From NCBI GenBank assembly GCA_051294905.1, contig CM119372.1, forward strand, positions 27,282,001-27,346,000: a DNA stretch of 64,000 nt, in the 5' to 3' direction. The DNA comes from Botryllus schlosseri. Lineage: Eukaryota. How positions within the stretch are numbered: position 1 is the first letter of the stretch; the number at the start of each line of letters is the position of its first letter. The notes below the pieces were generated by a model. It had not been told where the DNA came from and ran no database searches. It saw nothing but the letters and a program-made list of their open reading frames with translations. A program made the translations under genes and the position numbers. Below, piece by piece: positions 27,135 through 64,000 of this stretch.

Positions 27135-27164
27135 GAATATAGCGAATAAACGGAGAAATCCCAG

Positions 27165-27201: not shown

Positions 27202-27331
27202 AATCCCAGTACCAATCAAGAATATGATTCCGTACAGATGGGTCAATCATCATCAAATCTATGCATTTGTTAGAAAAGTCCCATATCCAGATAATCATCA
27301 CGTCTCTGCATGCGTTAGAATTACTCAGTTG

Positions 27332-40100: not shown

Positions 40101-43100
40101 CTTTGGTTCGAATTTATTACATTTCAACTGCGGGCAACTCTATGCATGGCGCTGGCAGCATAAAAAATTAACAACAAAACGAGCATGCACCTTGACAATC
40201 TCAAAGATTTTACTTGCTTTGTTACAAAAGTTTGCTCGAAATATCCAGCTTTCCGTTTGTGGATATTTAGTGACTCTGCTGTGAGCTTAACCCGCAATCA
40301 CACAACATCACGAGCGACATACACTACATGTAGTCAGCGAATGATGCTTATTCAACCAATCAATGAGATGGATATCGTTTTTGATGTAACAAATCTAGCA
40401 GGCGTACGGGTTCAATCTTGACTTCATCTGTTCACTGTATCATTAAAACCAAATACGTGCGATTGAGGTGTTGGCTACAGCTGTATATCTTGTGGGGTAG
40501 CCTAATACCGCTGGCAAGTATAGAAACCTGTTTTACACTCTGCCCAATCTCAATGTAGCAATACTCAGACGCCGAATACATTGTCCGGTCTGGCCAAGAC
40601 CGTTATAAGGGGCAAGCTTATATTCCCTTGCAACTCCTCGTCGAAATTGTTGGCAAAGCGACGGATGATATATGGGGGTATTATATCATTTGATTGCCTC
40701 AGTTGATACATTTAGCGACGTTTAAAACGCCAATATGTACTTCAGCGTTGTGGCATTACATGGCCCGAGTCGTCGCTAGGTATGGTGTACATTAATATAG
40801 GCTATCACTTGATTGAAAGATAGAGTTGGAATTAGCAATATGACGTCACGTGACGTCATGAGGTTCACGTTCGCGTTCACACAGAACCTTTCAAAAAGGT
40901 TCGCGTTCACACGAACCTGAACCTTTCAGAGGTTCACATCATCCCTACTATATTCCTTGAAAAAATCGCATAAAGCAAAGAGGGGGGCCCTTCGACCAGG
41001 GGGGTCCCCTGGCGACGGCCCACCTCGCCCACCCCAGAAGCCCCCACTGCTTATGTCGGTATCATTTCTTTCAAAACACACAGAGCAAGATATCACATGC
41101 GCTGGAGACGGCATTTCTTTGAAGTATAGGGCTTGACCTTGGGCGTCCTCTCAGAGCGCTATTTCAGAGTTCGGTTACCAAATTGAAAGTATATTTATGA
41201 AATAAGTCCGACTTACATTACTTATACTTCGCGATTGCATAAATGGGACACAATAGAAACTCTACAAGTATTACTGTTATGGTTTCATAACAAATGACAC
41301 TCAAATATTTGACTCGTGGCTTATTTCCCAAAATGGAATCAGTCATGTACTCGATTCGGCGTGGTCCTATGTAAGATTACTTACAGATACGCCTTAGGAA
41401 GCTGCTTGCAATGGATGTCGTCACTGACGCAATTAGCAATTGTTGGGTCTTCATGCTCGTATTCGCATGCGATGACTGGTCCGACTGTTAAAGGAATATT
41501 AAGTTGCTAGTTGCTTCCAACCAATTTTAATCAGGTGGAATTACTAGGGAGGGTGTGAACCTCTAAAAGGTTCGGGTTCGTGTGAACGCGAACCTTTTTG
41601 AAAGGTTCTGTGTGAACGCGAACGTGAACCTCGTGACGTCATGTGACGTCATATTGCTAATTTCAACCCTACATTTCAGTGAAGTGATAGTCTTGCAATA
41701 CCTAGCGACGATTCGGGCCACATAATGCCACAATGCTGAAATACCTATTGATGTTTTAAACGTCTGCAGATGTATCAACTGGGGCAATCAATTGATATAA
41801 TCATACCGGAAAATCAATATCTTGAGTCGCTTTGCCACAATTTCGACGAGAACTTGCAAGTGAATATAAGCTTACGCCTCAACGGTTAAGGTCAGACCGG
41901 TCAATGTATTCGGCTCCCGAGTATTGCTAAGTTGATATTGAGCAGAGTGTAAAACGGGTTTCCCTACTTGCTACCGATATTACCCCTTTAACATGTTATA
42001 GCAGTAGCCAACACCCCAATCCACGGAGTTGGTTTTCATGATACAATAAACATATGAAATCGAGATTGACGCCGTACGCCTGCTAGATTTTTTACATCAG
42101 ACAACGATATCAATTTCGTTGATTGGATGGATAAGAGCAGGGATATCTAGAACTTCTAGATATCCCTGGATAAGAGTCATTCGCTGACTACCTACATGTA
42201 GTGTTTCGCTCTTGATGTTGTGTGATTGCGGGTCAAACTCACAGCAGAGATGAGTCACTAAATATTCGCAAACGGAAAGCTGGATATCTCGAGCAAACAA
42301 TTGTAACAAAGCAAGTAAAATGTTTGAGATCGTCAAGGTGCATGCTTGTTTGGTGTTGATTTTTATGCTGCCAGCGCCATGCATATGCCGGGCCCGCAGT
42401 TGAAATGAAATAAATTTCAACCAAAGATGCTATAATGAAGTGAAAATTGTAATATATGAAAAAGGTTCACAGTGCAGAACCTACCAAGGTTCTTTTGTGA
42501 ACGTGAACCTCTAAATATCTGAGGTTCACACACAGAACGCGAACGTGAACCTCACGTTCACACCATCCCTAGGCATTACCTATATAATCACCTAATAGTC
42601 GTGCCTAACTCACCCTTCAAGTAAGCAGAGCCTCGCTTACGTTGATGGTATTGCTTGGTCCTCCATTGACAAGAAAAATCCATTTAAAAACATTTTTAAT
42701 AGGGATGTTGTGAACGTGAGGTTCGCGTTCGCGTTCTGTGTGTGAACCTCGGAAATTTGGTGGATAGCGTTCGCAAACGAACCTTGGTAGGTTCTGCATG
42801 GTGAACCTTTTTCATGTATTACAATTTTTCATTTCATTATAACGATCTGTCTTTTGTTGAAATTCTTTGCTTTCCAATTTCGGACCACTCTCCGAAAGGC
42901 ATCGGCACCATGAAAAGAAACTCAGCACTAAACGTGCATGCTCCTTGTCGATTTCAAAAAATTATTTGCTCAAAAGTTTGGTCGGAATTTTCTGCGTTAT
43001 GTTTGTGAATCTTTAGTAACTCTCTGCTGTGAGTTTTTTCCCGCAATCACGCAATAACAAGACCGAAAAATACTATAACCAATCATTTATATTTACATCA

Positions 43101-46100
43101 ACGAAATTGATATAAAGAATACATCGATATCTAATGTAAAAAATCTATCATGCGTAAAAGATCTATCTTGTTTCGATATCCTTATTGGATACCAGATTAG
43201 GGTTTTGGTTACTGTACATATTGTTTTTGATATATCTGTCACAAGTATAGAAACCGTCGTTTCACTCTTAAAAATACGTCTGTCCGGTCTAGGCGAGTCC
43301 TCTTTGAAATTGCTGGCAAAGCGACGGAAGATATTGATTTTGTGGAATTTTTATAGCATTTGATTGTTACAGTGGATACATTAGGTGGCGTTTAAAAAGT
43401 CCGCATGTAGACTACTTCAGTATTATGGCATAATGTGACCCGAGTCGTCGCTAGTTATCATATACATTAATATATTACTTTACGGAAATGTAGGGTAGGA
43501 ATTGGGAATATGACGCCAGGTGACGTCATAGCTAACGATCGCGTTCTCACATAACCTTTTAAAAAGGTTCGCGTTCACATGAACCAGAACCTTTCAGGGG
43601 TTTGCACCATCCCTTAATTTTAACCTACCAAAAAGTTATAAAAATTGTCATTCTCACCAATCTTGCACAATGCCCCTGTCTCTGTATGAAAGTAGAATTC
43701 GTAAAATAAATTGCACTTGGAAATGATACTGCATGGACGTGAAATTTTGGGTTATCAAATTAAACGCCTACGCACTATTTACAGTTTATTGAATGGCTCG
43801 GCGCACTTGCTTGATTATAGTTCTTTAGTTCAATAGTTCAACTCTCTTACAATATGCAAATATGATACTTTCGGCACGGTTTTAAATATATATGCACTGA
43901 TATGTCAGAGCTCTGTGCGGAGTGCTTCTGTTTGATACTGTAGCAATAGAACGTTGCAAGAGGTTCTGACAAAAGCACATTGCGAATACTAGTGTCCCCT
44001 GAACATTTTTTCTAACTGAGGTGCAAATTTGAAAGCATGTTAGCAGAAGCATTCTGCTTCTAGAAGCAGAAGCATTGAGCTTCATGCTAGAAGCTCAATT
44101 CTACAGAATCTCTGAAGATGAACAGAATCCCCAAAGATACTGACAGGTAAAATAATAATTGATGGAGGATAACGGAGCAATGGTAATGATATATGATAAA
44201 TGTAGGAAATAACCAGCCACAGAAAAATATTCATACAAATATATGGCCATGTCATCATCAGCAGATTAGTAAATTATGACGTTCGCATCGGGGTTAATAA
44301 CACTCTTCTCGTCGTATCTAATCAGACTGTGCGACCTTGGAAAATGTTCACTTGCGTTTTACGCAGTGCTTTTCATTTTCAACTTGACCACCGGTTGTTC
44401 TGTGAATGAAGGGATTGTTAGGTACTCGAGATTGATTGATCATTTTCAAACCCAAACAATATGTAGTATTTTTCACAAGTGTCGGGATCAAGTTACTACC
44501 TTCGAGTCACAAGTCATTAAATTTTGAAGGAAGTCCAGTCACGACTCAAGTAACGCAAATTTTCAAAATGACTCGGGTCAAATCAAATCATCCAAATTCG
44601 ATTCAACTTCAATTCAACTAACATTTTCACTTTTAAGCAGTTAAATTGCATAATTGCATGTTATAATAACCTCAACAAACCAGCCAATCTTGGTGGTATG
44701 CCAATTATAAACTACTAATTCGAAGTGAGTCAGCGCGCGTATCCATGTAAATCGATATGGATGCTCCATTCAATACAGTAGCTGACATATTTGAATGTAA
44801 GTGAGGTTGATTGACGGAAATGCTGCATGAAATGACCGCTATAACAACAATACCAATGTATATATTTTGTCGAAATTCCCGATAATGGACCAACCTATAT
44901 TCTTATTCAACAGAATTAATGTAGGATATTTTCGCATCATTATAATAATATTTTAATGCCAGTAAAGTTGCATGCCGAATCTATATTGTTTTTGAGGTTA
45001 TACTGATGATGCTGATCAATGATCATGTCGAATACGCAAGCGTAGTGAAATCCAATAACTACAGTGGTCAAGCTTATGTGCAGAGTGGAGAAATGGACAA
45101 ATAAGATATTTGAATATGAGGTCATGTCATATGCCATGAATAAAATGACTTTTGAATCTAGCAAGCAGGGATTTGAATCGAAGTGGCTTTGGAACGACGA
45201 CGAAGCCCCGCCGAGTATGCTCATTCGCGCGCCCACAGTTGTGTCACTGTTGGTAACATATAACGAGATCACCCGTCGAATATAATCACTGTGAATTCGA
45301 ATCCAATATTCTGCAGGACATGACTATTCTTTGATTCCTTGAATCGTGGGATGCTAAATCCTCACACAAATCACGTGCAACTTCAACAGCACAAAATTTT
45401 CCTATACTCTAATAAGGTAAAGTAAACGGATGTGTAGCACGACCACCGGTTTGTATATGACTTGATCCGCCAATAAATAAAACTTTTCGGTCGCATGAAC
45501 GCGGATATCACTGACTACAGTTATCTACGAAAGCAGGAAAAGAATGTCCTTATGGAATATATTCACATCTTATTTGTACAATGTGCTATCATGATCCATA
45601 CCTTCGCATTTCATTCCATGGCTCAGCTGTTCTTGAAGATGTGAGCATGCACAACAAAAGCAAGCATTAACTCTTAAGCATTTGAGTTAAATTTAGTTTC
45701 AGGGTTTTAAGCTCATATGCTAAAGTGCTGCTTGCTCAACATTAGTTTTTCATTGTATCGCAGGGCAAATGTCGGTCAACTGCTCCATACTAAAATTCGA
45801 TACTGAAAGTGCTGAATGCAACTGTCGCTTTGCATAGATCTGCAGACGCAGACAAATGTCCAATTCATATTTCGAAATGCAATTTCACTCTTCTAGTGAA
45901 TAGCTATATTGTTTTCGACTATGTAGATTCGGATATGATAGTCGCATTGGGTTACTCTGTTACTGCGTTATAACACAGCTTCATGATATCTCTCTATATC
46001 GAGAAATCTATCATTATCTTGTTTAGAGTGGTCTTTCCTGCTCCCTGCGATGCAGCAACTGACAGAATGTTTAAATTCAATGGATTAAGATCAACGATGT

Positions 46101-46806
46101 TGTCACATATTTCACGAAGTGTCATTGAATAAATAATACAATGCAATCCCGAATGCCATTACACCGCGATTCCAATAAATCAGAAAAGGCAGACATCTGT
46201 CAAAGCCGAAGGTCCATATTTGTTTTTATGTTAGTACAAAGATCAGCCTCATATACATTGGACAATCACATAAAAAAACTGAAATTGAAATATCAGCTAA
46301 AGAGCCACAACGATCAGGCATAGATAGAGTCACATACAATGCATCTTATATAGTCAACCAACACTCCGTTTCAGAAGGATCGGATTTCAGATAGCCATAC
46401 ATGAGATGAAGGTGCTGACTACATGGTATGATGCGTCCTCCTTTTTCAAGTTTTTTAAAATGTCCTCCAAGGACGCCAAAATGTCCACCTTTTTGGCAAT
46501 TCGTTCTCCTTTACAACTGTTAGAGCTAAGATAGTGGATAGATTCGAGTGAAATGATCATAAATGACGCTAAATAGGAAATTCGTGGTTCGAACGAAAGT
46601 GACAATTTTTTTAAGTCAACCAACGTAAAGTGTGAAAGAGAAACTGTTCTTCGGGAGTTGAGGCGGAAAGTTTACCTTTTTCTAGTCAACCAACCAAAAT
46701 GTTGGGAAAATTTATTATTTTTTTCGGATTTTACTCCAGTATTCAAGTCTGAAAATTTTGAAAAAGTGTCATCCTTTCCTAATTCCAAAATATGGTTACC
46801 ATATAG

Positions 46807-48681
46807 CAGTGGTTCTCAACCTTGCCTCCAGCGCCCCCCAAGGGGCGCTGACGAATTTGAAGGGGGCGGAAACGCTCAGGGGGCGATATGGGGGACGCTG
46901 GGCTCAGGGGGGCGGTATGGGGGGGGTGCTGGAGTAAAATGGCTTCGCAGCAGATGATGTGGTAGTAGGACATATCCTTAATGAGTATTCAGAGCGAATT
47001 AACACCGAAAATATCGTTATATATAGCCTACAAAAGACATATAGCTTTAATTGTCCATAGGCGCCTAAATGACTGGCACCGACTGTTCCTGTCTTGGCAA
47101 TCTGAACCCCAGAAGACGAATTCCATCTGGCAGGGAAAAATAATATGCCAGTGAAGAAATACCAATTTGAAATCGTGTGCGTCTTTTAGTTTAGTACGAT
47201 TGGACGACAGGGATATATAGAACTAGATATCCCCGTTGGGCGATATCCCTGTTGGGCGATTCTATATTTTTTCTGATATAGCAGACAGGAGGTCACGAAA
47301 TAACATCATGCTACGAAGTCATATCAACGGGTCCGCCCGCCCGACTATGTTTAATTATTACTTACGGGCCCTACAGTTTCCAAGACACCTCACAATGTTC
47401 CCTCTACGTTTTGACGAGTCTGCGCACACTCACAAACTCACTGCGCAGACCCTTGAACAACAGTGCGTAACGACTAAAAAAAGGTCATAACTTCCGATTT
47501 GTTGTGCGCAACGTAGATTTTCTGTGCGCAGAGACCGTGTCGGCACTGCGCACGTGCGCAGCTTAGAGGGAACATTGCACCTCACTCAGCTCTACCGGTA
47601 AATCTGGTAACGTGAGCAGAGAGGACGAGAAATTGAAAGCAATATATATGCAATTCCCGATCTTATTGACCGATTTTTATCATGAATTATCGAAAAATTT
47701 CGCGCTTCGCACTGGCTCGCTAAACAGTACAGCTGATTTCGTGGCAAAAGCGAACAACGTGATGGGGGGCGGTCGGTTTATCACCCTTAGGGAGCCCAAC
47801 ACCCAAGTTTTTTCGGTGGGCGTGACGAAGTGTCGTTTCGTTCGTGCCAACGGGAATACGCCCTGAGATGTATAATTATTATTGAGGGGTCCTTTCTTTT
47901 CAATCACACATCACTCAGCTCTACCGGTAAATCTGTTTGCGTGAGCAGAGAGAGGATAAAAATTGATATCAATATATATGCAGTTCCCGATCATATTGAC
48001 CAATTCAATCAATAATTATTGAAATTTTTCGCACTTCGCGCATCTAGGCGAGAATAGCTGGCTCAGTATATGCACACCCAATGTAGATGACTAGTATCAA
48101 CAAATAGCGGATAGCCGAAGGGGGGTCTGGGGGCGAAGCCCCCGGAAGTTTGATTTATCATCCTACGGGGGGCCCAAGACCAACGCTTTTTAGGAGGCTG
48201 ACGAAGTGCTGTTACGGCCCTGGTAACGAATTAATTGTACCTACGGGCACGCCCGAATATGTTTATTATTAATTACCTGCCCTTTATTTTTCAATACAAC
48301 AGCTCACTCAGCGCTACTGGTAAATCTGATTACGTGGGCTGAGAGGATAAAAAGTTTGTAGCGACATATGTTATTACCACCTATTCATTCATGCATTATA
48401 GAATATTTTGGCACCTGGGGCGTCCAGGTCTAGGCCACACAAACTTTACTGACCATCGAAATCACGCTACGGGGTTCTTGGGGCGAAGCCCTCAGAAGTT
48501 TGGTTTATCACGCTATGGGTGCGCAAGCCAGTCATTTTTAAGGGGGTTGATGAAGTGCTGTTACGCCCCTTCCTCTTACTCAATGTCTTTGTTACATTCC
48601 TTACAATATGAGGTTGAGGGGCGCTGGAGCACGATAATCTTTGAAAGGGGGCGCTGGAGGAAAAAAGGTTAAGAACCACTG
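46807..48681. mobile_element. hAT-type element with nested insertions
   Basis: TIR cagtggttct / agaaccactg, TSD ccatatag/ccctatag. Contains a MITE at 47393-47577 (TIR caatgttccctcta, duplicated cacctca) and a degenerate hairpin insert at 47208. Confidence 0.8.
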
Positions 48682-49745
48682 CCCTATAGTGTTAACCCAC
48701 TTTACAAAGAGAGCATCAGTTGTACATTTTGGGCGGAAATAACCTCGACTAAATTTATTAGACATATTTAATGCCGCTGGGTGCATCTACTGTCAAGAAT
48801 ATGGCTCTCATCCAGGATGAAATTTCACCATAGTCCCGACAATCCTTGAATATGGTGTCCTTTCGCTTCGCTTACAGCCATTTCCACCGTTTGCACTCGA
48901 GGTAAATTTGCTATCGTCGACTCTGTTGACATAAAATAATTAAGGCAGTATTCATAGATATACGCTTTCGCCTGCAGACCTCGCGCACTACTCAATCTAC
49001 GAAATGATTGCCACAGCCAGATCACCATTCCTCGTCCTCGATTTGAAATGACGTCAGGAAGATCAGAGTACAGAGCGCTGTTTATTGGAAAAATTAGACG
49101 TCCCGATGGAAGATACGCGTCAGTCGGGATGTCTACACCTGAAATGATATGGAAGAATATGATACGAAATGCCGAATAGAAGGAAGATAGTTTATTTCCG
49201 TGTGCACCAACGATCTGTTTGGAGATGCGACAGAACAGAAGGGGTATCGAGTCAGTACCACTGCTTCCCTCTCCACACAATCCAAGTTTTACGATCAAGT
49301 ATTGGCTTCGACCTGCTGGAAGTTGGTTGTAGCCACGATCTACCAAGCACCAAGATGGGCTTCCTACCATTACGCAATCTCGCTATAAACATATACTCTG
49401 TGTGAGGACAGTAACAGCACTTTGTCACCATCTTGCCCCCATAGGCTAATAAATCAAACTTCTGGGAAGAATCGAATACATAGCTGAATTCGATAAATGA
49501 AATTGGAACTGCATATATTACTGTCGAATTTTCAACTAATAGCCCATGTGCTGAGATCTATACCGTTAGTATGGACGGCATTGGTGTGTTTGTCAATGTA
49601 GCGCCCTTATTTCATACTTATGGATCTTCGAGCGGGCGCGTTGTTATCAATTACTTGGTAGTGTGTCGATGTTTATATTTCTTGACCGTCCGTCTGCTAT
49701 ATAGGCAAAATATTTCGTAATCGCTGATACGTATCAGACCTAAAT

Positions 49746-50742
49746 TAGGGATGGTGTGAACTTGAGGTTCACGTTCGCGTTCTGTGTGCGAACCGCGGAA
49801 ATTTAGAGGTTCGCGTTCACAGCAGAACTTTGGTAGGTTCTGCACTGTGAACCTTTTTCATATATATTACATTTTTCACTTCAATATGATATTTTCGGTT
49901 CGAATTTATTGCATTTCACCTGCGGGCCACTCTATGCGTGACGCTGGCAGCATAAAAATCAACACAAAACTAGCATGCACTTTAACAATCTCAAAGATTT
50001 TACTTGCTTTGTTACAAAAGTTGGCACGAAATATCTAGCATCCCGTTTGTGAATATTTAGTGACTCTCTGCTGTGAGCTTGACCAGCAATCACACAACTT
50101 CACGAGCGACATGCAGTACCTGTAGTCAGCGAATGATGCTTATTCATTATTCAACCAATCAATGAGATTGATAATGCCTTTTGACGTAATAAATTTAGCA
50201 GTCAATCTTGACTTCATATGTTTACTGTATCATTAAAACCAAATCCGTGCGATTGAGGTGTTGGCTACAGCTGTATCACTTGTGGGGTAGCCTATTATCG
50301 GCACCAAATATGGAAACATGTTCTACGCTCTGCCCAATATCAATGTAGCAATAGTCAGACGCCGAATACATTGTCCGGTCTGGCGAAGACTGTTAAGGCG
50401 TAAGCTTATATTCACTGGCAACTCCTCGTCGAAATTGTCGGCAAAGCGACGGATGATATTGATTTTATGGGAAAATCATATCATTTGACTGCCTCATTTG
50501 ATGCATTTAGCTAGGTTTCAAACGCCAATATGTATTTAAGCATTGTGTCATTATGTGGCCCGAGTCATCGCTAGGTATTGTGTACATTACTATAGGCTAT
50601 CACTTAACTGAAATGTAGCGTTGGAATTAGAAATATGACGTCACATGACGTCATGAGGTTCACGTTCGCGTTCACACAGAACCTTTCAAAAAGGTTCGCG
50701 TTCACACGAACCTGAACCTTTCAGAGGTTCACACCATCCCTA
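49746..50742. mobile_element. Family A element in a GPCR intron (mirror 62757-63753)
   Basis: TIR tagggatggtgtgaac / gttcacaccatcccta, partial TSD ctaaat. Confidence 0.9.
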
Positions 50743-53423
50743 CTAAATAACTTCTGCCATGCGACGCACACAACTCAAACAGGCATTTCTTCACCGGGCG
50801 CATTATTTTTCTCTACGGGTGGCATTTGTAAAGTGGGGGCTCGGATTGCCACGACAAGGCAATGGAAAGGCCATCCATTTAGGCGCCTATTGACAAGGGA
50901 AAATTCGACATGGATATATCGGTTTCCGTAAACATGAGGCGGTTATGTTTGGGTCAAGGATTCCTCGCCGGCAAGCTTTTTGGAAGCATACACTTCACAT
51001 TCGTATGTTAGCCGAAACATCATTGTCAACGTCTTGGTGTGTCGTGGCGCGGTAATGACCGACGCCGAAATGCTTTTCTCTAAAAAATAATGCGTGTTTT
51101 GAGGGGGTATCGATATTGATATCATGACATCTAGCAAAAATAAATCGCGCGAATCGCGAAGAAAATTTGACTAAGTTCTAAAAATATATAAAATACTCCA
51201 TCATTTATGTTAAATTACGAAATAATTTTGGGTTCCCTTCGACCTCGACAATTGCGGGTTTGGGGAGCGGCAGTTACGGTCCTGCTCTGTGGACGTATGC
51301 GAATACTCATATAGGGCGTCAATGTTATGTTAACGGCCAGCCTTTATACCGTTTCGTTCGATTTACGAATTGAACATGCAGCATACAATATTTGGTTTAA
51401 ATATTATCTTATTATCGTATCATTCATTATCATATCCCATCATCCCAAACAATTATACCTGTCAATTTAAAGAATCCCATAATGCAGATTGGCATCCAGC
51501 ACATAAAATCCGATACAAGAATCCTGGTAAGCTTGCTTTGCATTGCAGTACCTTGCTTATCTCTTTGTTTGCGCGTAGCCAGCGAGGCTAGGATTTTCTT
51601 GCTGTACGCCTTTCTGTAAATGTACAAAATAAAAGTTGTGTCTCTGAGAAATAGGTGAACTGAACACTTGTCAGCTGCATGCAACGAATTGAAAATCACT
51701 AAATCAACTCGAAGAATGAATGTGAATTGCTTTCCGTGTGGTAATATCAAATCAAATGACGATCCTTGCAAATAAAGACGCAAGTCAAAAATAAGGACCG
51801 ATGTTAAAAATCTATATGTAGTTTCGTAATTGCAGTTTCAACACTAGCATTTTGTGAACTCCTTAAAAGTAACCCGCTGATCCCAATGCTTTCTTAGAAC
51901 CCTGCTCTATATAGTCGAAACTGCACGGTAGACACCTCGTCCCCGATTGTAACGCTCCGATTTTGAACAAATGATGACATCATGACACTGCAACATGTCA
52001 TCTGATATTGTTAATCATACCTGTACAATATGATGTAGCCCAAGAGCATACAAATAAATGCCCCGAAATTAGTCAGCAACAGAAGAAGGGAGTACGACCA
52101 CGATCTGTATTGTCGCTCTGGAAATAGCGCCGGTAGGCAAACGGTATGACTCGAGTAGTATCCGAATTCGTGGACTGCCCTTATGCTCGGATTAATTTGA
52201 GCAACAAGTCTTCTCAGTTTGCTCCATCCTGTACCGCTGCAAACGTTGTTCTTGGAAGTTTGACTTCGATTCATTATTTGTGAAACGTTGCGGATTTGTT
52301 ACCGGTCGTGCAGTTCCTGTATGTCGCTATCGTTCATCAGACCGAGCCAGTTTATCAAGTACTCCTTTTGCGTTTGATTCACCTTTGTCTTGAAAATGGC
52401 AATATTGTGGAATCTACAAACGTGATTTGTGGTCCTGGTATGCTGATATGATGATGTATTATTATCTATATCTGTGAACAAATCCAGTAAACCATAACCC
52501 AGCTTCAATGATAACATTGTTTAACAGCCAGCTTATGCTTCTGACATGACTGTGGCTAATCATGGCTAATTTTGGGTGGCAGGTCATGAATATCAACTTG
52601 AAACTTTCTCATTAGCTCTAATTATTGCCTAAATGTTGTGACCACGCACACACACTACCCCAGAGGTTCTCAACCTCGCGGCACCCTCTCTGAGGGACAA
52701 ATAGTTCGCGGCACCCTATATCACTCCGAATAGCCTGAGTGGCGAGTACCGTAGTGGTACGATCCATGGGGTTACCATATTTGGAGATCTGGAAAAGCGG
52801 ACACTTTCTACAAATCACGCAACTTATCAAATCGGACGAGAATGCCGGTAATTTTACAATTGTTACTGGAATACTGCTGCGTTGACTATAAAAGAAGGTC
52901 ATTTGCATTTTCAAATCACCTCCTGGAAGACCAGCTGTAACGTTATTTTTCAGTCATCCTTGCCATCGCTGCCGTTCAAATCCAGATTCTTCGAGTCTCC
53001 CAAATAATACAGTGATATTGCAGTATGACATTAGGATCCGTTACTAGCTCACGTGACCGTGCCGGGATATTCATAGTTCAACTAGATTTCCCACTCTTTT
53101 CATGTGTAGGCTACTGTAATCGATTTGACGGGATATGCAGCTCCCACACACTGTTGACAATCACCTCACAATTTGGGATTACACAAAATATAGTTTACTT
53201 ATATATTTTACCTCATAAAGTCAGTCAGATTACTTCAGTCTTAGGCAGTTTATTTCCGAAACCATCATGATGTGAATAAACCCAACCTACATTTCAATCT
53301 TTAAATAATACCATTGAAATTGCGTTAATAATTTCACATTGTTTACTGACTGATGTGTTTCGATATGGAAATTACTTACGATATATCCTGCAAAAAGTAA
53401 TCTTCTAAAGAAGGTATCAACGG

Positions 53424-53705
53424 GGGTGGCGAGATAGCGCAGTGGTATAATCCGCGGCTGCAACACCAATGGGTGCGGGTTCGAGTCCGACCGAGGTCGA
53501 CTTCCGAATTCCGACACCTAAGTGTTGGAGGTTTGCCTAGGCTCCTCCTCGCCACCTCATCCGCGTCAGCGGTGTCTTACAAAAAGCCTAGAGGTGGGCT
53601 GTGCTATAAGTCGGAAGTTACGGAAAATAAGAAGAATATCGGACTGATGTAAATAACCATAGTAGTCGACAAACACCATGAATACCCCAAAACAAACAAA
53701 CAAAC
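53424..53705 (+). mobile_element. tRNA-derived SINE inserted antisense in a GPCR exon, left copy
   Basis: Same family as 33867, perfect 13 bp TSD aaggtatcaacgg. Confidence 0.92.
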
Positions 53706-56700
53706 AAGGTATCAACGGTATCAGTCCAGCGAAAATTGAGATCAGCCAGGTGATCCCGACTGCCATGATTGCTCGCCTGTAGTGCGGCGTTGCATGTGGT
53801 CTGCAAGCAATATTATTCTCTTCGAATGGGATGACACATGCACATTTTTACAAATAAAAGAATGTCGAACGTCCCCAAATTATTGAACAAAGGCGAAATG
53901 TGGATAACTCCGTTATATACATCGAAACCGTTCACGAAAGAAAGCTGATTTCTAGGCTACTTAATAAGAATTAGTTCTTTATCTTTTTACTGTTCGTATG
54001 TTGGACGACGTGTTCTCTCATAATTACGAATATAGCTCGACTCAATTTTGTGAAATGGAGGTGTTTTTAATTTTCTGGAGGGGGCACTAACATTAAAATC
54101 AAGAATTCGAGTGACTATAAATCGCGTGAAGTGCTAAGAAAAATATCAAGTCAAGCAAATATTCTAAGAAATATTCTACTATATGGTCATTGGTCATATA
54201 CAAAGATTTACGAAAAATGTGGCTGGCCATTGCTACAAAAACGCGTCGGAACTGATATTTTAGTATTCAACGTTCCAAATTTCTCGGTCAGGCTACCACC
54301 CTTGGGTTGGACTTGCAAGTTCACAATTAATTTTGTCCGGGTATTTTTTTGATATGACTAATTTCCCGAATTACCTCGCTGGCCACTGGTTGGCCGCCTC
54401 TGATATAGGCTAATAGTCAATATTATATGTCCATTATCGCATCATGACTTAAACCACGTATAAAATAAATTCCTTAAGCAACCCAATGCATATACACCAT
54501 GCAGTTATGTGAGCGAAAATCATACTAATTCCAGGGGTCTCATCTAGAAGTCTGGTGGGATTACAAATGTCTTACTAAAAACAGGGTCAGAGTCGGATTA
54601 GTAAACTTACTGATTACAGTATCGGGCATAACTGTCATGAATATGGAAAATAGTGGCTGCGCAGTTGAATTGGCCTGGTATTCAAGTCAGAGCATATCTT
54701 ACTATATTTTGTTTGGATCCAATCAGCAGATTACTAACAAATTGGATTGCCCAATTTCCCACGGCTGACAACGCAGCAGTATTTCACACCAACTTGCCGC
54801 CCTTATCTGGCGACACCAATGTATCTATTGAAACCTCATGACAGCATGCAGTCGATTTATCGTTATCAGAACCATTGTAAACACGGATTGCTCTGATCCG
54901 ACGATTAATAGCGCGCCAAGCATTGAACAGGCGGTGCTTGCTCTCCATTCGACATCGACATCGCAGTATCTGCCTTCGAACACCGCGGCCTTGATGCATA
55001 TGGAAATCGTGTATACCTGAGTATTTACCAGATACACTATTACGGTAAATGCATATAGTAGCTATATACGTATCCTACCCCAACAAGCAAATCAGCAACG
55101 GATAAACTCATTATGAGTAGTCTGTTGATGGTGGTATGCGATGAAGTGACAATTCGATCAGGGCTCTTCAACAGGCCATGTAAATTTGATCCAACTACGA
55201 TTGTACATCGAAAAATGGCAGTAACACCTGCAAAGTAAACGGAGTAGAGTAGAGCATGAACATCATCTACATTAGACTTGAAACCTGTAAAATATTTCTG
55301 TCCCGAGCGATTTAAACTTGGTAAAGTCGACATATCGAGCCTCACTGAAATCCTCTTCCAGTCCAAATACCTCGAGCCCGGTCGATATTTCTAACTGACT
55401 TACTGAATATCCACACCAGAGGAAGGACTCCTGTGCTTTTAATCATGGACTTCTCGTCAGAAAATGCACTGTCAATGCATCCTGGCTGACATTCGAGAGA
55501 GAATTACCACTCATTTTCGCATGCAACGCTTTGCCTATCCGCATCCATGGAATGGATGCATACTGCATGGGCAAGATAAAAAAAAACATAACCACTTTTT
55601 TGACCTCTCCCCATTCAATACACCGCTCTCTCAGAATCACTTATACTGAAATTATTAAATGACACATTTTACGTTGAGGAAATATGCCAGAAATAATCCT
55701 CGTTATCTTGATTTACGAAATAATTCCCCTCCGAGCTCCCCTCCTCAATTTTGGGTATTGCGATGCGGTCGTCGTGGAGTTTAAACGGGCAACAAATTTC
55801 AGCGCTGATAATTTTGGGACCGGGAAAACCTCTTGCTACACATCTACTTTCCTCAAACGATGAATGCGTATATAATAAACTCTAATATGACAGATTATAT
55901 CAGATTAGCTGTAAGCACATTCAACACAAAACATTCAACTGATATCGAGGATTCATCCGACTTTAACCAGCGCGTATGGTGCAAATCAGGTCAGCGACAG
56001 TTTCTGGTGCAACACCAACTAGAACAGATATAACCGAGCCAAGTACATCAAACCTTATGATGGTATATATCACATGGTTTACGTTTACCAATTTTTGCAA
56101 ACCGGAGATATATTCGTAGCTCCATTTTTGGCATAGTCCATCAGAAGTATCGATATTAAACACCTACCATTCGATTTCAATGTGTTCAGGTTTTGACTAT
56201 TGACGATCCAACGCTTTACTTGACGGTCCACCAAAGGTTTCGTGTCATCATAGTAAGCGTTGTCAAGTAGTTTATCCATAAAAAATCTTACTGTAATATG
56301 CAATTCTTACACTGTCTTCAGAGATAACCTTTTCGTCGTCGCAATGGAAATATAAGCATGGGCATCCAATTTCGCACCATTCAGCAATGTTGCACTTGGC
56401 ATCCTGCAATGTATTGTATATGCGTTGTTGGCTACATCTTACAATTAAAATCATGGTCATTACTAAAGCTGGGCTACCTCAAACACATATATCAGTATAG
56501 TTTCCTTGGACATGCAAGTCTCATTCAGAGGGATTAATTTATTGTTAAATGGGGATAATGATTTCATATATCCACTGGTAACATTGTATTGTACGTACAC
56601 TGGCAGAAATGGCTAAAGATGCCCACGGCTTAGTCAAAATGGGTCTCTGAAAGATTCCTCGTCCGCCTTCCATTTTTAGGTATTTTTGTAGGCTCTTTCT

Positions 56701-57103
56701 CATCATATTTCTCATTTCTCAATGATTTCTCCAACACATTCGTCCATGTTATTACCATACTCGTCGAATGTGTTGGAGAAATCATTGAGAAATGAGAAAT
56801 ATGATGAGAAAGAGCCTACAAAAATACCTAAAAATGGAAGGCGGACGAGGAATCTTTCAGAGACCCATTTTGACTAAGCCGTGGGCATCTTTAGCCATTT
56901 CTGCCAGTGTACGTACAATACAATGTTACCAGTGGATATATGAAATCATTATCCCCATTTAACAATAAATTAATCCCTCTGAATGAGACTTGCATGTCCA
57001 AGGAAACTATACTGATATATGTGTTTGAGGTAGCCCAGCTTTAGTAATGACCATGATTTTAATTGTAAGATGTAGCCAACAACGCATATACAATACATTG
57101 CAG

Positions 57104-60100
57104 GATGCCAAGTGCAACATTGCTGAATGGTGCGAAATTGGATGCCCATGCTTATATTTCCATTGCGACGACGAAAAGGTTATCTCTGAAGACAGTGTAA
57201 GAATTGCATATTACAGTAAGATTTTTTATGGATAAACTACTTGACAACGCTTACTATGATGACACGAAACCTTTGGTGGACCGTCAAGTAAAGCGTTGGA
57301 TCGTCAATAGTCAAAACCTGAACACATTGAAATCGAATGGTAGGTGTTTAATATCGATACTTCTGATGGACTATGCCAAAAATGGAGCTACGAATATATC
57401 TCCGGTTTGCAAAAATTGGTAAACGTAAACCATGTGATATATACCATCATAAGGTTTGATGTACTTGGCTCGGTTATATCTGTTCTAGTTGGTGTTGCAC
57501 CAGAAACTGTCGCTGACCTGATTTGCACCATACGCGCTGGTTAAAGTCGGATGAATCCTCGATATCAGTTGAATGTTTTGTGTTGAATGTGCTTACAGCT
57601 AATCTGATATAATCTGTCATATTAGAGTTTATTATATACGCATTCATCGTTTGAGGAAAGTAGATGTGTAGCAAGAGGTTTTCCCGGTCCCAAAATTATC
57701 AGCGCTGAAATTTGTTGCCCGTTTAAACTCCACGACGACCGCATCGCAATACCCAAAATTGAGGAGGGGAGCTCGGAGGGGAATTATTTCGTAAATCAAG
57801 ATAACGAGGATTATTTCTGGCATATTTCCTCAACGTAAAATGTGTCATTTAATAATTTCAGTATAAGTGATTCTGAGAGAGCGGTGTATTGAATGGGGAG
57901 AGGTCAAAAAAGTGGTTATGTTTTTTTTTATCTTGCCCATGCAGTATGCATCCATTCCATGGATGCGGATAGGCAAAGCGTTGCATGCGAAAATGAGTGG
58001 TAATTCTCTCTCGAATGTCAGCCAGGATGCATTGACAGTGCATTTTCTGACGAGAAGTCCATGATTAAAAGCACAGGAGTCCTTCCTCTGGTGTGGATAT
58101 TCAGTAAGTCAGTTAGAAATATCGACCGGGCTCGAGGTATTTGGACTGGAAGAGGATTTCAGTGAGGCTCGATATGTCGACTTTACCAAGTTTAAATCGC
58201 TCGGGACAGAAATATTTTACAGGTTTCAAGTCTAATGTAGATGATGTTCATGCTCTACTCTACTCCGTTTACTTTGCAGGTGTTACTGCCATTTTTCGAT
58301 GTACAATCGTAGTTGGATCAAATTTACATGGCCTGTTGAAGAGCCCTGATCGAATTGTCACTTCATCGCATACCACCATCAACAGACTACTCATAATGAG
58401 TTTATCCGTTGCTGATTTGCTTGTTGGGGTAGGATACGTATATAGCTACTATATGCATTTACCGTAATAGTGTATCTGGTAAATACTCAGGTATACACGA
58501 TTTCCATATGCATCAAGGCCGCGGTGTTCGAAGGCAGATACTGCGATGTCGATGTCGAATGGAGAGCAAGCACCGCCTGTTCAATGCTTGGCGCGCTATT
58601 AATCGTCGGATCAGAGCAATCCGTGTTTACAATGGTTCTGATAACGATAAATCGACTGCATGCTGTCATGAGGTTTGAATAGATACATTGGTGTCGCCAG
58701 ATAAGGGCGGCAAGTTGGTGTGAAATACTGCTGCGTTGTCAGCCGTGGGAAATTGGGCAATCCAATTTGTTAGTAATCTGCTGATTGGATCCAAACAAAA
58801 TATAGTAAGATATGCTCTGACTTGAATACCAGGCCAATTCAACTGCGCAGCCACTATTTTCCATATTCATGACAGTTATGCCCGATACTGTAATCAGTAA
58901 GTTTACTAATCCGACTCTGACCCTGTTTTTAGTAAGACATTTGTAATCCCACCAGACTTCTAGATGAGACCCCTGGAATTAGTATGATTTTCGCTCACAT
59001 AACTGCATGGTGTATATGCATTGGGTTGCTTAAGGAATTTATTTTATACGTGGTTTAAGTCATGATGCGATAATGGACATATAATATTGACTATTAGCCT
59101 ATATCAGAGGCGGCCAACCAGTGGCCAGCGAGGTAATTCGGGAAATTAGTCATATCAAAAAAATACCCGGACAAAATTAATTGTGAACTTGCAAGTCCAA
59201 CCCAAGGGTGGTAGCCTGACCGAGAAATTTGGAACGTTGAATACTAAAATATCAGTTCCGACGCGTTTTTGTAGCAATGGCCAGCCACATTTTTCGTAAA
59301 TCTTTGTATATGACCAATGACCATATAGTAGAATATTTCTTAGAATATTTGCTTGACTTGATATTTTTCTTAGCACTTCACGCGATTTATAGTCACTCGA
59401 ATTCTTGATTTTAATGTTAGTGCCCCCTCCAGAAAATTAAAAACACCTCCATTTCACAAAATTGAGTCGAGCTATATTCGTAATTATGAGAGAACACGTC
59501 GTCCAACATACGAACAGTAAAAAGATAAAGAACTAATTCTTATTAAGTAGCCTAGAAATCAGCTTTCTTTCGTGAACGGTTTCGATGTATATAACGGAGT
59601 TATCCACATTTCGCCTTCGTTCAATAATTTGGGGACGTTCGACATTCTTTTATTTGTAAAAATGTGCATGTGTCATCCCATTCGAAGAGAATAATATTGC
59701 TTGCAGACCACATGCAACGCCGCACTACAGGCGAGCAATCATGGCAGTCGGGATCACCTGGCTGATCTCAATTTTCGCTGGACTGATACCGTTGATACCT
59801 TGTTTGTTTGTTTGTTTTGGGGTATTCATGGTGTTTGTCGACTACTATGGTTATTTACATCAGTCCGATATTCTTCTTATTTTCCGTAACTTCCGACTTA
59901 TAGCACAGCCCACCTCTAGGCTTTTTGTAAGACACCGCTGACGCGGATGAGGTGGCGAGGAGGAGCCTAGGCAAACCTCCAACACTTAGGTGTCGGAATT
60001 CGGAAGTCGACCTCGGTCGGACTCGAACCCGCACCCATTGGTGTTGCAGCCGCGGATTATACCACTGCGCTATCTCGCCACCCCCGTTGATACCTTCTTT

Positions 60101-62048
60101 AGAAGATTACTTTTTGCAGGATATATCGTAAGTAATTTCCATATCGAAACACATCAGTCAGTAAACAATGTGAAATTATTAACGCAATTTCAATGGTATT
60201 ATTTAAAGATTGAAATGTAGGTTGGGTTTATTCACATCATGATGGTTTCGGAAATAAACTGCCTAAGACTGAAGTAATCTGACTGACTTTATGAGGTAAA
60301 ATATATAAGTAAACTATATTTTGTGTAATCCCAAATTGTGAGGTGATTGTCAACAGTGTGTGGGAGCTGCATATCCCGTCAAATCGATTACAGTAGCCTA
60401 CACATGAAAAGAGTGGGAAATCTAGTTGAACTATGAATATCCCGGCACGGTCACGTGAGCTAGTAACGGATCCTAATGTCATACTGCAATATCACTGTAT
60501 TATTTGGGAGACTCGAAGAATCTGGATTTGAACGGCAGCGATGGCAAGGATGACTGAAAAATAACGTTACAGCTGGTCTTCCAGGAGGTGATTTGAAAAT
60601 GCAAATGACCTTCTTTTATAGTCAACGCAGCAGTATTCCAGTAACAATTGTAAAATTACCGGCATTCTCGTCCGATTTGATAAGTTGCGTGATTTGTAGA
60701 AAGTGTCCGCTTTTCCAGATCTCCAAATATGGTAACCCCATGGATCGTACCACTACGGTACTCGCCACTCAGGCTATTCGGAGTGATATAGGGTGCCGCG
60801 AACTATTTGTCCCTCAGAGAGGGTGCCGCGAGGTTGAGAACCTCTGGGGTAGTGTGTGTGCGTGGTCACAACATTTAGGCAATAATTAGAGCTAATGAGA
60901 AAGTTTCAAGTTGATATTCATGACCTGCCACCCAAAATTAGCCATGATTAGCCACAGTCATGTCAGAAGCATAAGCTGGCTGTTAAACAATGTTATCATT
61001 GAAGCTGGGTTATGGTTTACTGGATTTGTTCACAGATATAGATAATAATACATCATCATATCAGCATACCAGGACCACAAATCACGTTTGTAGATTCCAC
61101 AATATTGCCATTTTCAAGACAAAGGTGAATCAAACGCAAAAGGAGTACTTGATAAACTGGCTCGGTCTGATGAACGATAGCGACATACAGGAACTGCACG
61201 ACCGGTAACAAATCCGCAACGTTTCACAAATAATGAATCGAAGTCAAACTTCCAAGAACAACGTTTGCAGCGGTACAGGATGGAGCAAACTGAGAAGACT
61301 TGTTGCTCAAATTAATCCGAGCATAAGGGCAGTCCACGAATTCGGATACTACTCGAGTCATACCGTTTGCCTACCGGCGCTATTTCCAGAGCGACAATAC
61401 AGATCGTGGTCGTACTCCCTTCTTCTGTTGCTGACTAATTTCGGGGCATTTATTTGTATGCTCTTGGGCTACATCATATTGTACAGGTATGATTAACAAT
61501 ATCAGATGACATGTTGCAGTGTCATGATGTCATCATTTGTTCAAAATCGGAGCGTTACAATTGGGGACGAGGTGTCTACCGTGCAGTTTCGACTATATAG
61601 AGCAGGGTTCTAAGAAAGCATTGGGATCAGCGGGTTACTTTTAAGGAGTTCACAAAATGCTAGTGTTGAAACTGCAATTACGAAACTACATATAGATTTT
61701 TAACATCGGTCCTTATTTTTGACTTGCGTCTTTATTTGCAAGGATCGTCATTTGATTTGATATTACCACACGGAAAGCAATTCACATTCATTCTTCGAGT
61801 TGATTTAGTGATTTTCAATTCGTTGCATGCAGCTGACAAGTGTTCAGTTCACCTATTTCTCAGAGACACAACTTTTATTTTGTACATTTACAGAAAGGCG
61901 TACAGCAAGAAAATCCTAGCCTCGCTGGCTACGCGCAAACAAAGAGATAAGCAAGGTACTGCAATGCAAAGCAAGCTTACCAGGATTCTTGTATCGGATT
62001 TTATGTGCTGGATGCCAATCTGCATTATGGGATTCTTTATATTGGCAG
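57104..62048 (+). pseudogene. LGR/GRL101/RXFP-like GPCR pseudogene, right copy; last exon expected beyond the window
   Basis: Exons 58280-58428 (NRLLIMSLSVADLLVG), 58491-58672 (EWRASTACSMLGALLIVGSEQSVFTMVLITINRL), 59707-~60120 (TM4, split by the SINE), 61036-61486 (GYYSSHTVCLP and TM5, in-frame TAA at 61206) and 61894-62048 (SDFMCWMPICIMG). Junctions are phase-compatible except the unclear donor near 60120. The Cys-rich exon 57104-57196 is tentative. Confidence 0.87.
59802..60083 (-). mobile_element. tRNA-derived SINE inserted in a GPCR exon, right copy
   Basis: Perfect 13 bp TSD ccgttgatacctt (59789-59801 and 60084-60096). Removing the SINE restores LIPLIPSLEDYFLQ. Confidence 0.92.
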
Positions 62049-64000
62049 GTATAATTGTTTGGGATGATGGGATATGATAATGAATGATACGATAATAAGA
62101 AAACCAAATATTGTATGCTGCATGTTCAATTCGTAAATCGAACGAAACGGTATAAAGGCTGGCCGTTAACATAACATTGACGCCCTATATGAGTATTCGC
62201 ATACGTCCACAGAGCAGGACCGTAACTGCCGCTCCCCAAACCCGCAATTGTCGAGGTCGAAGGGAACCCAAAATTATTTCGTAATTTAACATAAATGATG
62301 GAGTATTTTATATATTTTTAGAACTTAGTCAAATTTTCTTCGCGATTCGCGCGATTTATTTTTGCTAGATGTCATGATATCAATATCGATACCCCCTCAG
62401 AACACGCATTATTTTTTAGAGAAAAGCATTTCGGCGTCGGTCATTACCGCGCCACGACACACCAAGACGTTGACAATGATGTTTCGGCTAACATACGAAT
62501 GTGAAGTGTATGCTTCCAAAAAGCTTGCCGGCGAGGAATCCTTGACCCAAACATAACCGCCTCATGTTTACGGAAACCGATATATCCATGTCGAATTTTC
62601 CCTTGTCAATAGGCGCCTAAATGGATGGCCTTTCCATTGCCTTGTCGTGGCAATCCGAGCCCCCACTTTACAAATGCCACCCGTAGAGAAAAATAATGCG
62701 CCCGGTGAAGAAATGCCTGTTTGAGTTGTGTGCGTCGCATGGCAGAAGTTATTTAGTAGGGATGGTGTGAACCTCTGAAAGGTTCAGGTTCGTGTGAACG
62801 CGAACCTTTTTGAAAGGTTCTGTGTGAACGCGAACGTGAACCTCATGACGTCATGTGACGTCATATTTCTAATTCCAACGCTACATTTCAGTTAAGTGAT
62901 AGCCTATAGTAATGTACACAATACCTAGCGATGACTCGGGCCACATAATGACACAATGCTTAAATACATATTGGCGTTTGAAACCTAGCTAAATGCATCA
63001 AATGAGGCAGTCAAATGATATGATTTTCCCATAAAATCAATATCATCCGTCGCTTTGCCGACAATTTCGACGAGGAGTTGCCAGTGAATATAAGCTTACG
63101 CCTTAACAGTCTTCGCCAGACCGGACAATGTATTCGGCGTCTGACTATTGCTACATTGATATTGGGCAGAGCGTAGAACATGTTTCCATATTTGGTGCCG
63201 ATAATAGGCTACCCCACAAGTGATACAGCTGTAGCCAACACCTCAATCGCACGGATTTGGTTTTAATGATACAGTAAACATATGAAGTCAAGATTGACTG
63301 CTAAATTTATTACGTCAAAAGGCATTATCAATCTCATTGATTGGTTGAATAATGAATAAGCATCATTCGCTGACTACAGGTACTGCATGTCGCTCGTGAA
63401 GTTGTGTGATTGCTGGTCAAGCTCACAGCAGAGAGTCACTAAATATTCACAAACGGGATGCTAGATATTTCGTGCCAACTTTTGTAACAAAGCAAGTAAA
63501 ATCTTTGAGATTGTTAAAGTGCATGCTAGTTTTGTGTTGATTTTTATGCTGCCAGCGTCACGCATAGAGTGGCCCGCAGGTGAAATGCAATAAATTCGAA
63601 CCGAAAATATCATATTGAAGTGAAAAATGTAATATATATGAAAAAGGTTCACAGTGCAGAACCTACCAAAGTTCTGCTGTGAACGCGAACCTCTAAATTT
63701 CCGCGGTTCGCACACAGAACGCGAACGTGAACCTCAAGTTCACACCATCCCTAATTTAGGTCTGATACGTATCAGCGATTACGAAATATTTTGCCTATAT
63801 AGCAGACGGACGGTCAAGAAATATAAACATCGACACACTACCAAGTAATTGATAACAACGCGCCCGCTCGAAGATCCATAAGTATGAAATAAGGGCGCTA
63901 CATTGACAAACACACCAATGCCGTCCATACTAACGGTATAGATCTCAGCACATGGGCTATTAGTTGAAAATTCGACAGTAATATATGCAGTTCCAATTTC

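What the first reader, a model, noticed from the sequence alone, without database searches (positions are those of the whole stretch)
49499..64000. Second giant palindrome with only a 22 bp loop, creating two head-to-head GPCR copies
Seen: spacer tccatgttattaccatactcgt (56743-56764). Both receptor copies read outward from the centre. No clear start, signal or LRR exons lie between the centre and the first recognisable exon. Inference: the fold-back occurred inside or just upstream of the gene, so this is a route to receptor-gene duplication or truncation by palindrome formation.
Basis: partly seen in the sequence, partly recalled or inferred. Interest (0 to 1): 0.72.

Follow-up and report, generated by a model that had tools for sequence, protein, structure and literature searches.

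The report
Twin fold-back carrying a dead receptor
A sea-squirt chromosome carries two neighbouring mirror-image duplications of almost equal length, probably the scar of one DNA break whose two ends each copied themselves, and the receptor gene doubled in the second one was already broken beforehand.

Summary
The palindrome is in the sequence as described: 22-bp spacer at 56743-56764, arms 99.8% identical over the 7.2 kb visible on both sides. The receptor is an ascidian LDLa-type (LDLRR/GRL101-like) GPCR, not an LRR receptor. It was already a pseudogene: a SINE-like insert splits an exon in both arms, and conserved motifs are lost. So the palindrome copied a dead gene; truncation by the fold-back is not shown.

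The more interesting point is the partner. Contig ends in public runs place the start of the left arm at 45223, exactly where the neighbouring palindrome (21892-45226) ends, with a 4-bp overlap. The arms would then be 11,520 and 11,587 bp. This layout (X-A-A'-B-B'-Y) is a pair of 'reciprocal fold-backs', known from cancers, here healed locally. Reads of the likely source sample show two near-identical copies; a second individual has one copy and seems to lack the joint. No read or contig crossing the 22-bp loop was seen, so a mis-assembled tandem duplication remains possible (about 0.2). The scan had noted Polinton-ended palindromes and this receptor family in this genome, but no twin fold-back.

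The parts
45223..56742 (.). Left arm (B) of the second palindrome. 49499-56742 is mirrored inside the window; 45223-49498 is inferred.
   Evidence: for the visible part; contigs of X1 and X2 begin exactly at 45223, and main-contig depth in X2 stays at 90-108 (about two copies) from 45223 to the centre.
56743..56764 (.). 22-bp single-copy spacer (fold-back loop s2)
   Evidence: No record crossing it was listed.
56765..64000 (.). Right arm (B'), runs off the window; predicted end about 68276
   Evidence: mirror arithmetic
45223..45226 (+). Joint between the first palindrome's right arm and this palindrome's left arm, with 4 shared bases (ATTC)
   Evidence: X2 contig 9 ends at 45226 and X1 contig 2 / X2 contig 10 start at 45223. 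The microhomology is inferred from these contig ends.
21892..33478 (.). Partner palindrome, left arm (A), 11,587 bp
33479..33622 (.). Partner palindrome, 144-bp spacer (s1)
33623..45226 (.). Partner palindrome, right arm (A'), 11,604 bp; 99.4% identical to the left arm including indels, with 14 isolated substitutions
   Evidence: substitutions counted outside the one repeat-slippage block; about 2:1 allele depth at 44895 in X1.
57945..58103 (+). Frameshifted remnant of the last LDLa exon (57945-58012, by eye only) running into the clear pre-TM1 segment ECQPGC...VWIFS (58013-58103); mirror at 55404-55494, minus strand
   Evidence: best hit of the ectodomain profile, 15.9 bits; donor site
58280..58428 (+). 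TM1-TM2 exon; the conserved GN of TM1 reads RC; mirror 55079-55227
58491..58672 (+). TM2-TM3 exon; mirror 54835-55016
59707..60127 (+). TM4 exon, split by the SINE-like insert; mirror 53380-53800
59802..60096 (-). SINE-like element (tRNA-type A/B-box-like head and (CAAA)n tail, read by eye), 282 bp plus one copy of a 13-bp target duplication (59789-59801 and 60084-60096); identical in both arms
   Evidence: Very high depth over its mirror shows a high-copy family. No Rfam or ARAGORN hit.
61209..61486 (+). ECL2-TM5 exon. Homology begins at 61209, directly after an in-frame TAA; the 5' boundary is unresolved. Mirror about 52021-52298.
61894..62048 (+). TM6 exon; mirror 51459-51613; the arms differ here by two amino-acid changes (IL/KL, AG/TG)
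48825..49138 (-). Last (TM7 and tail) exon, seen only in the left arm; lacks four residues including the NP of the NPxxY motif

Best explanation
The two palindromes are one rearrangement. The ancestral order was X-A-s1-(M)-s2-B'-Y. One double-strand break in M left two resected ends. Each 3' end folded back on a few inverted bases (loops of 144 and 22 nt) and copied its own flank for about 11.5 kb. The two new outer ends then joined through 4 shared bases, giving X-A-s1-A'-B-s2-B'-Y and losing M. The LDLa-type GPCR in B' was already a pseudogene and was copied as a passenger; any remaining 5' exons went with M or had decayed earlier. Shown: both palindromes, loops, gene lesions (sequence); two near-identical copies and branch points at 45223/45226 (contigs). 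Inferred: the arm end at 45223, a single event, the break, fold-back priming, loss of M, and resection as the cause of equal arm length.
For: (1) Arms 99.8% identical, 22-bp spacer. (2) X2 contig 9 (740 bp, wholly aligned) ends at 45226; X1 contig 2 and X2 contig 10 start at 45223 with their first base. Both places behave as branch points, as expected if A has two continuations and B two predecessors. (3) In X2 the main contigs have depth 90-108 over both palindromes, and two divergent contigs 38 and 45. In X1 the letter at 44895 is T 20.7 of 29, about 2:1 (left arm plus homologue against right arm). (4) Arm-specific letters occur in the sample's contigs: at 51099 X1 has the left-arm and X2 the right-arm letter; at 51945 the main contigs have the left-arm letter. 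(5) X5, another sample, has near-identical B contigs at depth 42-53 (one copy). Its contig 18 runs through the end of A with 248 unaligned letters, apparently beyond 45225, so it seems to lack the joint. (6) Arm lengths 11,520 (inferred) and 11,587/11,604; a rough null gives about 0.004 for so close a match. (7) Substitution rates 14 in 11,587 and 6 in 7,236 are compatible with one age (P = 0.23). (8) Topology: after a reversal at s1 and a same-direction joint, a second reversal is needed to return to Y. (9) Reciprocal fold-backs from one break are described (PMC12807874); yeast fold-back loops have a median of 36 nt with intact MRE11/SAE2 (PMC7467729). (10) Pseudogene: SINE with 13-bp duplication in both arms; NP present in 47 of 47 homologues examined but missing here; TM1 [GAS]N in 51 of 55 homologues but RC here.
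Against: No contig or read crossing the 22-bp loop was listed: the joint and loose-end tables were swamped by repeats, and the depth sum of the last bin fits several layouts. At 56433 both arms read T, but X2 shows C (86 of 86) and X1 C at 27.8 of 54.7, so near the centre the assembled arms may be more alike than the molecules. No divergent single-copy contig covers 45281-45707 in X1 or X2, so depth alone cannot exclude that the two B copies are homologues. Divergent contigs over the exons may be paralogues (X5 has three contigs at 51945). X1 depth is uneven (17-18 outside, 24-26 inside, about 54 near the centre). The right-arm end lies outside the window. X1 and X2 are one sample and may be the source of the assembly. 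The inverted microhomology at the loops cannot be measured without the ancestral allele. The null for equal arm length was chosen after the fact.
Confidence: 0.55

Rival explanations
1. Assembly error on a real tandem duplication. The true order is X-[A-M-B']-[A-M-B']-Y, or the two B copies are homologues, and fold-back chimeric reads turned it into two palindromes.
For: The joint A'|B is the same sequence as a head-to-tail B'|A joint, so the contig ends and copy numbers fit this too. No loop-crossing record was listed. The T/C conflict at 56433 and the lack of differences within 1.9 and 2.3 kb of the centres are what self-copying reads would give.
Against: It needs two separate fold-back artefacts and complete loss of M from the assembly. 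Difference-free centres of that length are expected by chance with P = 0.13 and 0.09. Equal arm length is unexplained. The spacer reads as ordinary genomic sequence and is not like the long-read adapter as I recall it (not tested). Large palindromes in one ascidian assembly were checked with long reads and judged real (PMC12448946, passages); that is a precedent, not a test of this locus.
Confidence: 0.2
2. Same real structure, made by replication rather than by an open break. A collapsed or re-fired bidirectional bubble centred in M, or serial template switches (fold back at s1, jump to the end of B, fold back at s2), produced it. Equal arms then reflect equal fork travel.
For: Explains the symmetry and the 4-bp overlap equally well. 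Copy-and-paste 'local n-jumps' with inverted low-level gains are described in cancers (PMC7025897, passages).
Against: It needs three ordered switches, or re-replication plus two central reversals. Short loops at both inner junctions are the usual fold-back signature. Nothing here separates it firmly from the best explanation.
Confidence: 0.14
3. The two palindromes are unrelated: independent fold-backs, an old palindrome kept alike by arm-to-arm conversion, or a member of the Polinton-ended palindromic mobile family that earlier notes report for this genome.
For: Earlier AI notes describe hundreds of 9-20 kb palindromic elements in this genome (not checked here).
Against: No AGTAGT/ACTACT motif lies at 21892, 45223-45226 or either centre. 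The arms are host DNA with introns and nested repeats at about two copies, not hundreds. The arms abut to the base, have equal length and similar divergence, and a second individual has a single copy.
Confidence: 0.07
4. One reading: palindrome formation duplicated, or truncated, a working receptor, giving two expressed head-to-head copies or an ectodomain-less receptor.
For: Splice sites of six internal exons are canonical and in phase. No ectodomain exons remain near the centre.
Against: SINE inside an exon in both arms; NP of NPxxY deleted; TM1 GN lost; frameshifted LDLa remnant. In 6% of one RNA run of another sample, the exon bins without repeats had depth 0-1.45 against 10-60 on repeats (weak evidence).
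Confidence: 0.04

Closest known systems
Reciprocal fold-backs by breakage-replication/fusion (Zhang et al. 2026, PMC12807874; abstract, passages, section 6 and part 1 of supplementary file 3 read)
   Same: Two fold-back junctions facing each other across a lost stretch, attributed to the two ends of one double-strand break; 23 cases in 2,588 cancer genomes.
   Different: There the offsets within a fold-back run from 153 bp to 14.7 kb (46 of 46 junctions in the table, my subtraction); here the loops are 144 and 22 bp, more like hairpin priming. Here the two outer ends are joined to each other after about 11.5 kb each, giving one linear chromosome in what is probably an inherited allele. The parts read do not describe how the outer ends are healed; the other supplements were not read.
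Fold-back inverted duplications with a single-copy spacer (Hermetz et al. 2014, PMC3907307, passages; Li et al. 2020 in yeast, PMC7467729, passages)
   Same: Inverted duplication around a non-duplicated spacer, attributed to 3' fold-back on 2-8 bp of inverted microhomology; yeast loops have a median of 36 nt.
   Different: Human cases are one-ended, megabase-sized, with 0.8-70 kb spacers, and are healed by a telomere or translocation. Here the event is two-ended, interstitial and of kilobase scale.
Ascidian LDLRR-GPCRs / GRL101-like receptors (Kamesh et al. 2008, PMC2396169, passages; Styela clava XP_039261829.1, XP_039271686.2)
   Same: Relaxin-receptor-like 7TM with the same loop motifs (GYYSSHxVCLP, SDFxCWMP), preceded by the cysteine segment that follows the last LDLa repeat. 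The best named hits are Styela and Ciona proteins.
   Different: This copy is decayed, and no intact LDLa repeat, signal peptide or start was found.
Polinton/Maverick-ended palindromic elements noted earlier in this genome (AI notes, unchecked)
   Same: Near-perfect inverted repeats of 10-20 kb in the same genome.
   Different: No Maverick end motif at the visible ends, low copy number, and host gene content.

Membership tests
Fold-back inverted duplication | Near-identical inverted arms around a single-copy spacer | tested here: met
Fold-back inverted duplication | Junction present in real molecules | tested here: inconclusive
   One search listed no record across the loop; depth arithmetic is undecided
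Fold-back inverted duplication | Copy gain of the arm relative to an unduplicated allele | tested here: met
   about two copies in X2 and one in X5. For A, about 2:1 allele depth in X1. For B, a homologue origin of the second copy is not excluded by depth alone.
Fold-back inverted duplication | Inverted microhomology at the spacer edge in the ancestral allele | not testable with these tools
   No genome held; the ancestral continuation was not shown
Reciprocal fold-backs from one break | Two fold-backs of opposite orientation whose loops were neighbours in the ancestral sequence | tested here: inconclusive
   Two loops on one contig with abutting arms; adjacency of s1 and s2 in the ancestor is inferred from topology, not seen
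Reciprocal fold-backs from one break | Same age of both duplications | tested here: met
   14/11,587 against 6/7,236 substitutions, P = 0.23; a weak test
Ascidian LDLRR-GPCR | Relaxin-receptor-like 7TM closest to ascidian GRL101-like proteins | tested here: met
   no tree was built
Ascidian LDLRR-GPCR | LDLa repeats without LRRs in the ectodomain | tested here: inconclusive
   Homologues: 9 of 12 LDLa, 0 of 12 LRR. Window: only the post-LDLa segment scores; no LDLa repeat above controls.
Ascidian LDLRR-GPCR | Intact coding frame with TM1 GN and TM7 NP motifs (functional member) | tested here: not met
Polinton/Maverick-ended palindromic element | AGTAGT...ACTACT ends (motif taken from earlier notes) | tested here: not met
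   no such motif at 21892, 45223-45226 or the centres; the far right end lies outside the window
Polinton/Maverick-ended palindromic element | High copy number | tested here: not met
   non-repeat parts of the arm at about two copies

The most novel reading that the evidence does not exclude
The locus is an inherited, intact fossil of one two-ended break repaired by symmetric fold-back synthesis. The two 11.5-kb arms record how far each end was resected or displaced, a direct ruler of end processing in an animal germline. Twin palindromes of equal arm length are a recurring class of local gene duplication in ascidians, possibly started by breaks at the many giant hairpin elements reported for this genome (that trigger is speculation).
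Probability: 0.3. Interest if true: 0.65.

Novelty: new variant of a known kind. Interest (0 to 1): 0.42.

Why it matters
The receptor side is ordinary: a dead copy in a large ascidian family. The structure matters if real. Reciprocal fold-backs have been inferred from breakpoints in tumours and usually imply dicentric or acentric products. Here they would be healed on the spot into a viable chromosome, with all three junctions readable and arms of equal length, which makes the repair route testable by counting such twins across haplotypes. It is also a warning for assemblies: a tandem duplication and a twin palindrome share their outer junction and differ only at two short loops.

Tried and rejected
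No whole genome is held, so the right-arm end and paralogues could not be read. The word-based protein search of the TM2-TM3 exon found nothing (3 candidates, none at E<=0.001); phmmer did (242 hits). Pfam on 15 window fragments gave only a sub-threshold 7tm_1 match (E 0.027) and two weak unrelated matches. No tRNA or Rfam hit in the window.

Searches for the lost ectodomain all stayed at background. An LDLa profile built from 68 repeat matches in the homologues gave a best hit of 9.2 bits at 46169-46143, E 0.054. A 33-sequence ectodomain profile, with tblastn against control tiles, scored only 58013-58103. A frameshift- and intron-aware alignment of 7 ectodomains gave 0 of 7 above controls (16 of 36 control stretches used). 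A cysteine-rich candidate exon at about 57101-57196, seen by eye, did not score above chance. The idea that the 5' exons lie in the partner palindrome's left arm was tested and not supported.

A templated origin of the spacer gave only one 12-mer match (48368), not treated as meaningful. Maverick ends were rejected. The absence of X5 contigs over 56416-56800 was not used, because the tool states that a hole proves nothing.

Paper searches with no hit: 'giant palindromes' + 'genome assembly' + 'invertebrate'; transposon-excision hairpin terms. 'dup-del-dup' led to PMC6258378 (passages), and 'reciprocal foldback' to PMC12807874 and one preprint whose passages concern non-reciprocal cases. Neither described this healed twin form in the parts read. 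Searches were seen as listings only. These nine searches do not cover subscription journals.
Full report
Observation. Self-alignment of the window shows two giant inverted repeats. The one in question has its left arm ending at 56742, a 22-bp spacer at 56743-56764, and a right arm from 56765 that runs off the window. Over 7,244 columns the arms differ by 6 substitutions and one 8-bp indel. The other palindrome spans 21892-33478 and 33623-45226 with a 144-bp spacer and 14 isolated substitutions plus indels. Neither can be chance.

The gene. The TM2-TM3 exon matched LH/CG, LGR4, FSH, TSH and relaxin receptors among solved structures. It found 242 relatives among 1.84 billion representatives. Of 10 top hits looked up, 6 carry names, all from Styela clava or Ciona, several called GRL101-like. 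Of 12 homologues scanned, 9 have LDLa repeats and none an LRR family. This is the LDLRR-GPCR layout described for Ciona (PMC2396169, passages). The animal is therefore most likely an ascidian; the species was not determined. tblastn with these homologues gave the exons 58013-58103, 58280-58428, 58491-58672, 59707-60127, about 61209-61486 and 61894-62048, their mirrors in the left arm, and a last exon at 49138-48825 on the minus strand.

The gene was dead before the duplication. A 282-bp SINE-like element with a 13-bp target duplication sits inside the TM4 exon, identical in both arms; homologues align to both sides of it. The last exon lacks four residues including NP, which 47 of 47 homologues with that region keep; this exon is visible only in the left arm. 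TM1 reads RC where 51 of 55 homologues have [GAS]N. The DNA just before 58013 looks like a frameshifted LDLa exon (by eye). Three searches found no further ectodomain exon above background, near the centre or elsewhere in the window. Loss of the 5' part at the fold-back is thus possible but not shown. In 6% of one RNA run from another sample, the repeat-free exon bins had depth 0-1.45, which is weak evidence.

Is the duplication real? Five of 24 listed runs hold half or more of the sampled words: four of sample S1, which may be the source, and X5 of sample S2. I laid X1, X2, X5 and X15 on 44000-56800. In X2 the main contigs have depth 90-108 throughout and two divergent contigs 38 and 45; X5's single alleles run at 39-53. 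At 44895, an arm difference of the first palindrome, X1 shows T at 20.7 of 29. X5 has only the divergent type at 44354-44411, at two-copy depth. So sample S1 carries three copies of A, and that duplication is real. At 51099 X1 took the left-arm and X2 the right-arm letter, so both letters exist in the sample. X5 holds the closest B-like sequence at one-copy depth (42.1, 42.1, 50.6, 52.8).

Where the arm ends. X2 contig 9 is wholly aligned and stops at 45226, the end of A'. X1 contig 2 and X2 contig 10 start with their first base at 45223. In a de Bruijn assembly this means that A has two continuations and B two predecessors, with 4 shared bases. A one-letter difference at 45443 between X1 and X2 shows two near-identical copies there as well. 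The simplest reading is that the left arm runs to 45223 and abuts the first palindrome. X5 contig 18 passes the end of A without breaking and carries 248 unaligned letters, apparently on that side (the side is inferred from where the other contigs end). X5 thus seems to lack the joint, and the rearrangement is polymorphic. The arms would be 11,520 against 11,587/11,604 bp. A rough log-uniform null, chosen after the fact, gives 0.004. Divergences fit one age (P = 0.23).

What is not shown. No record crossing the 22-bp loop was listed, because repeats swamped the joint tables, and depth arithmetic does not decide it. At 56433 the contigs show a C that neither assembled arm has. No divergent contig covers 45281-45707 in S1, and divergent contigs over the exons may be paralogues. 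A head-to-tail duplication has the same outer joint and copy numbers, so a mis-assembly at the two loops remains open (about 0.2). Against it: it needs two artefacts and the loss of the middle piece, and leaves the equal arms unexplained.

Mechanism. X-A-s1-A'-B-s2-B'-Y is what results if a break in a lost middle piece M gives two ends, each folds back and copies its flank, and the two new ends join by microhomology. If synthesis stops where resection stopped and the nick is met by the next replication fork, arm length equals resection length, which would explain the symmetry (inference). A bidirectional replication bubble with template switches gives the same product and cannot be excluded. 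Fold-back priming around a single-copy spacer is established for human and yeast inverted duplications (PMC3907307, PMC7467729; passages). Pairs of facing fold-backs from one break are termed reciprocal foldbacks, with 23 cases in PCAWG (PMC12807874). In its table all 46 offsets are 153 bp or more (my subtraction), longer than both loops here. Polinton-ended palindromes, which earlier notes report as abundant in this genome, do not match: no end motif and low copy number.

Novelty and verdict. The receptor is an ordinary pseudogene passenger. The rearrangement is a probable new variant of a known kind: reciprocal fold-backs healed locally with equal arms in a non-tumour animal genome. I found no description of this form in nine searches of the open library or in the scan's notes. 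Unread supplements of PMC12807874, and those of the preprint, may bear on it. Interest 0.42; the symmetric-resection reading has probability about 0.3 and would deserve about 0.65.

Noticed in passing
window 56433 (mirror 57074): Both assembled arms read T, but contigs of the matching sample show C (X2 86 of 86; X1 27.8 of 54.7): a missed arm difference, a paralogue, or a sign of consensus homogenisation near the centre.
   Followed up: partly
window 16209-20749: An older, decayed inverted structure: 17634-18139 against 19777-20276 and 16209-16694 against 20278-20749 (about 79% identical), enclosing a complex 24/41/65-bp minisatellite at 18299-19773.
   Followed up: no
window 5353-6621 and 4067-4254: 80-bp satellite, 16 copies at about 85% match, plus a separate 2.3-copy piece.
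   Followed up: no
window 49746-50748 (mirror 62751-63753); also 26136-27134, 39955-40953, 24546-25514, 41537-42572, 11023-11863: A non-coding repeat of about 1 kb with inverted ends (MITE-like by eye), several copies in the window and very high depth in all DNA runs.
   Followed up: no
window 32971-33234 and 33867-34130: A second copy of the SINE-like element (about 90% identical) lies in both arms of the first palindrome, about 250 bp from its loop.
   Followed up: partly
window 51587-52539 and 53704-53800: Several divergent contigs over the exons (X5: three at 51945, one at depth 128) and protein P0054 (91% identical over 32 residues) point to close paralogues of this receptor with variable copy number.
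   Followed up: no
window 57101-57196 (mirror 56311-56406): Cysteine-rich frame after a good acceptor site, possibly a decayed ectodomain exon. Contigs of X1, X2 and X5 all end at 56415, just outside its acceptor, but it did not score above controls.
   Followed up: partly
window 58677 / 54830: The arm difference nearest the centre falls on position +5 of a splice donor (G in the right arm, C in the left).
   Followed up: no
window 29238-30143 and 36971-37853: Short GACTC/ACTTG-type tandem repeats, mirrored in both arms of the first palindrome.
   Followed up: no
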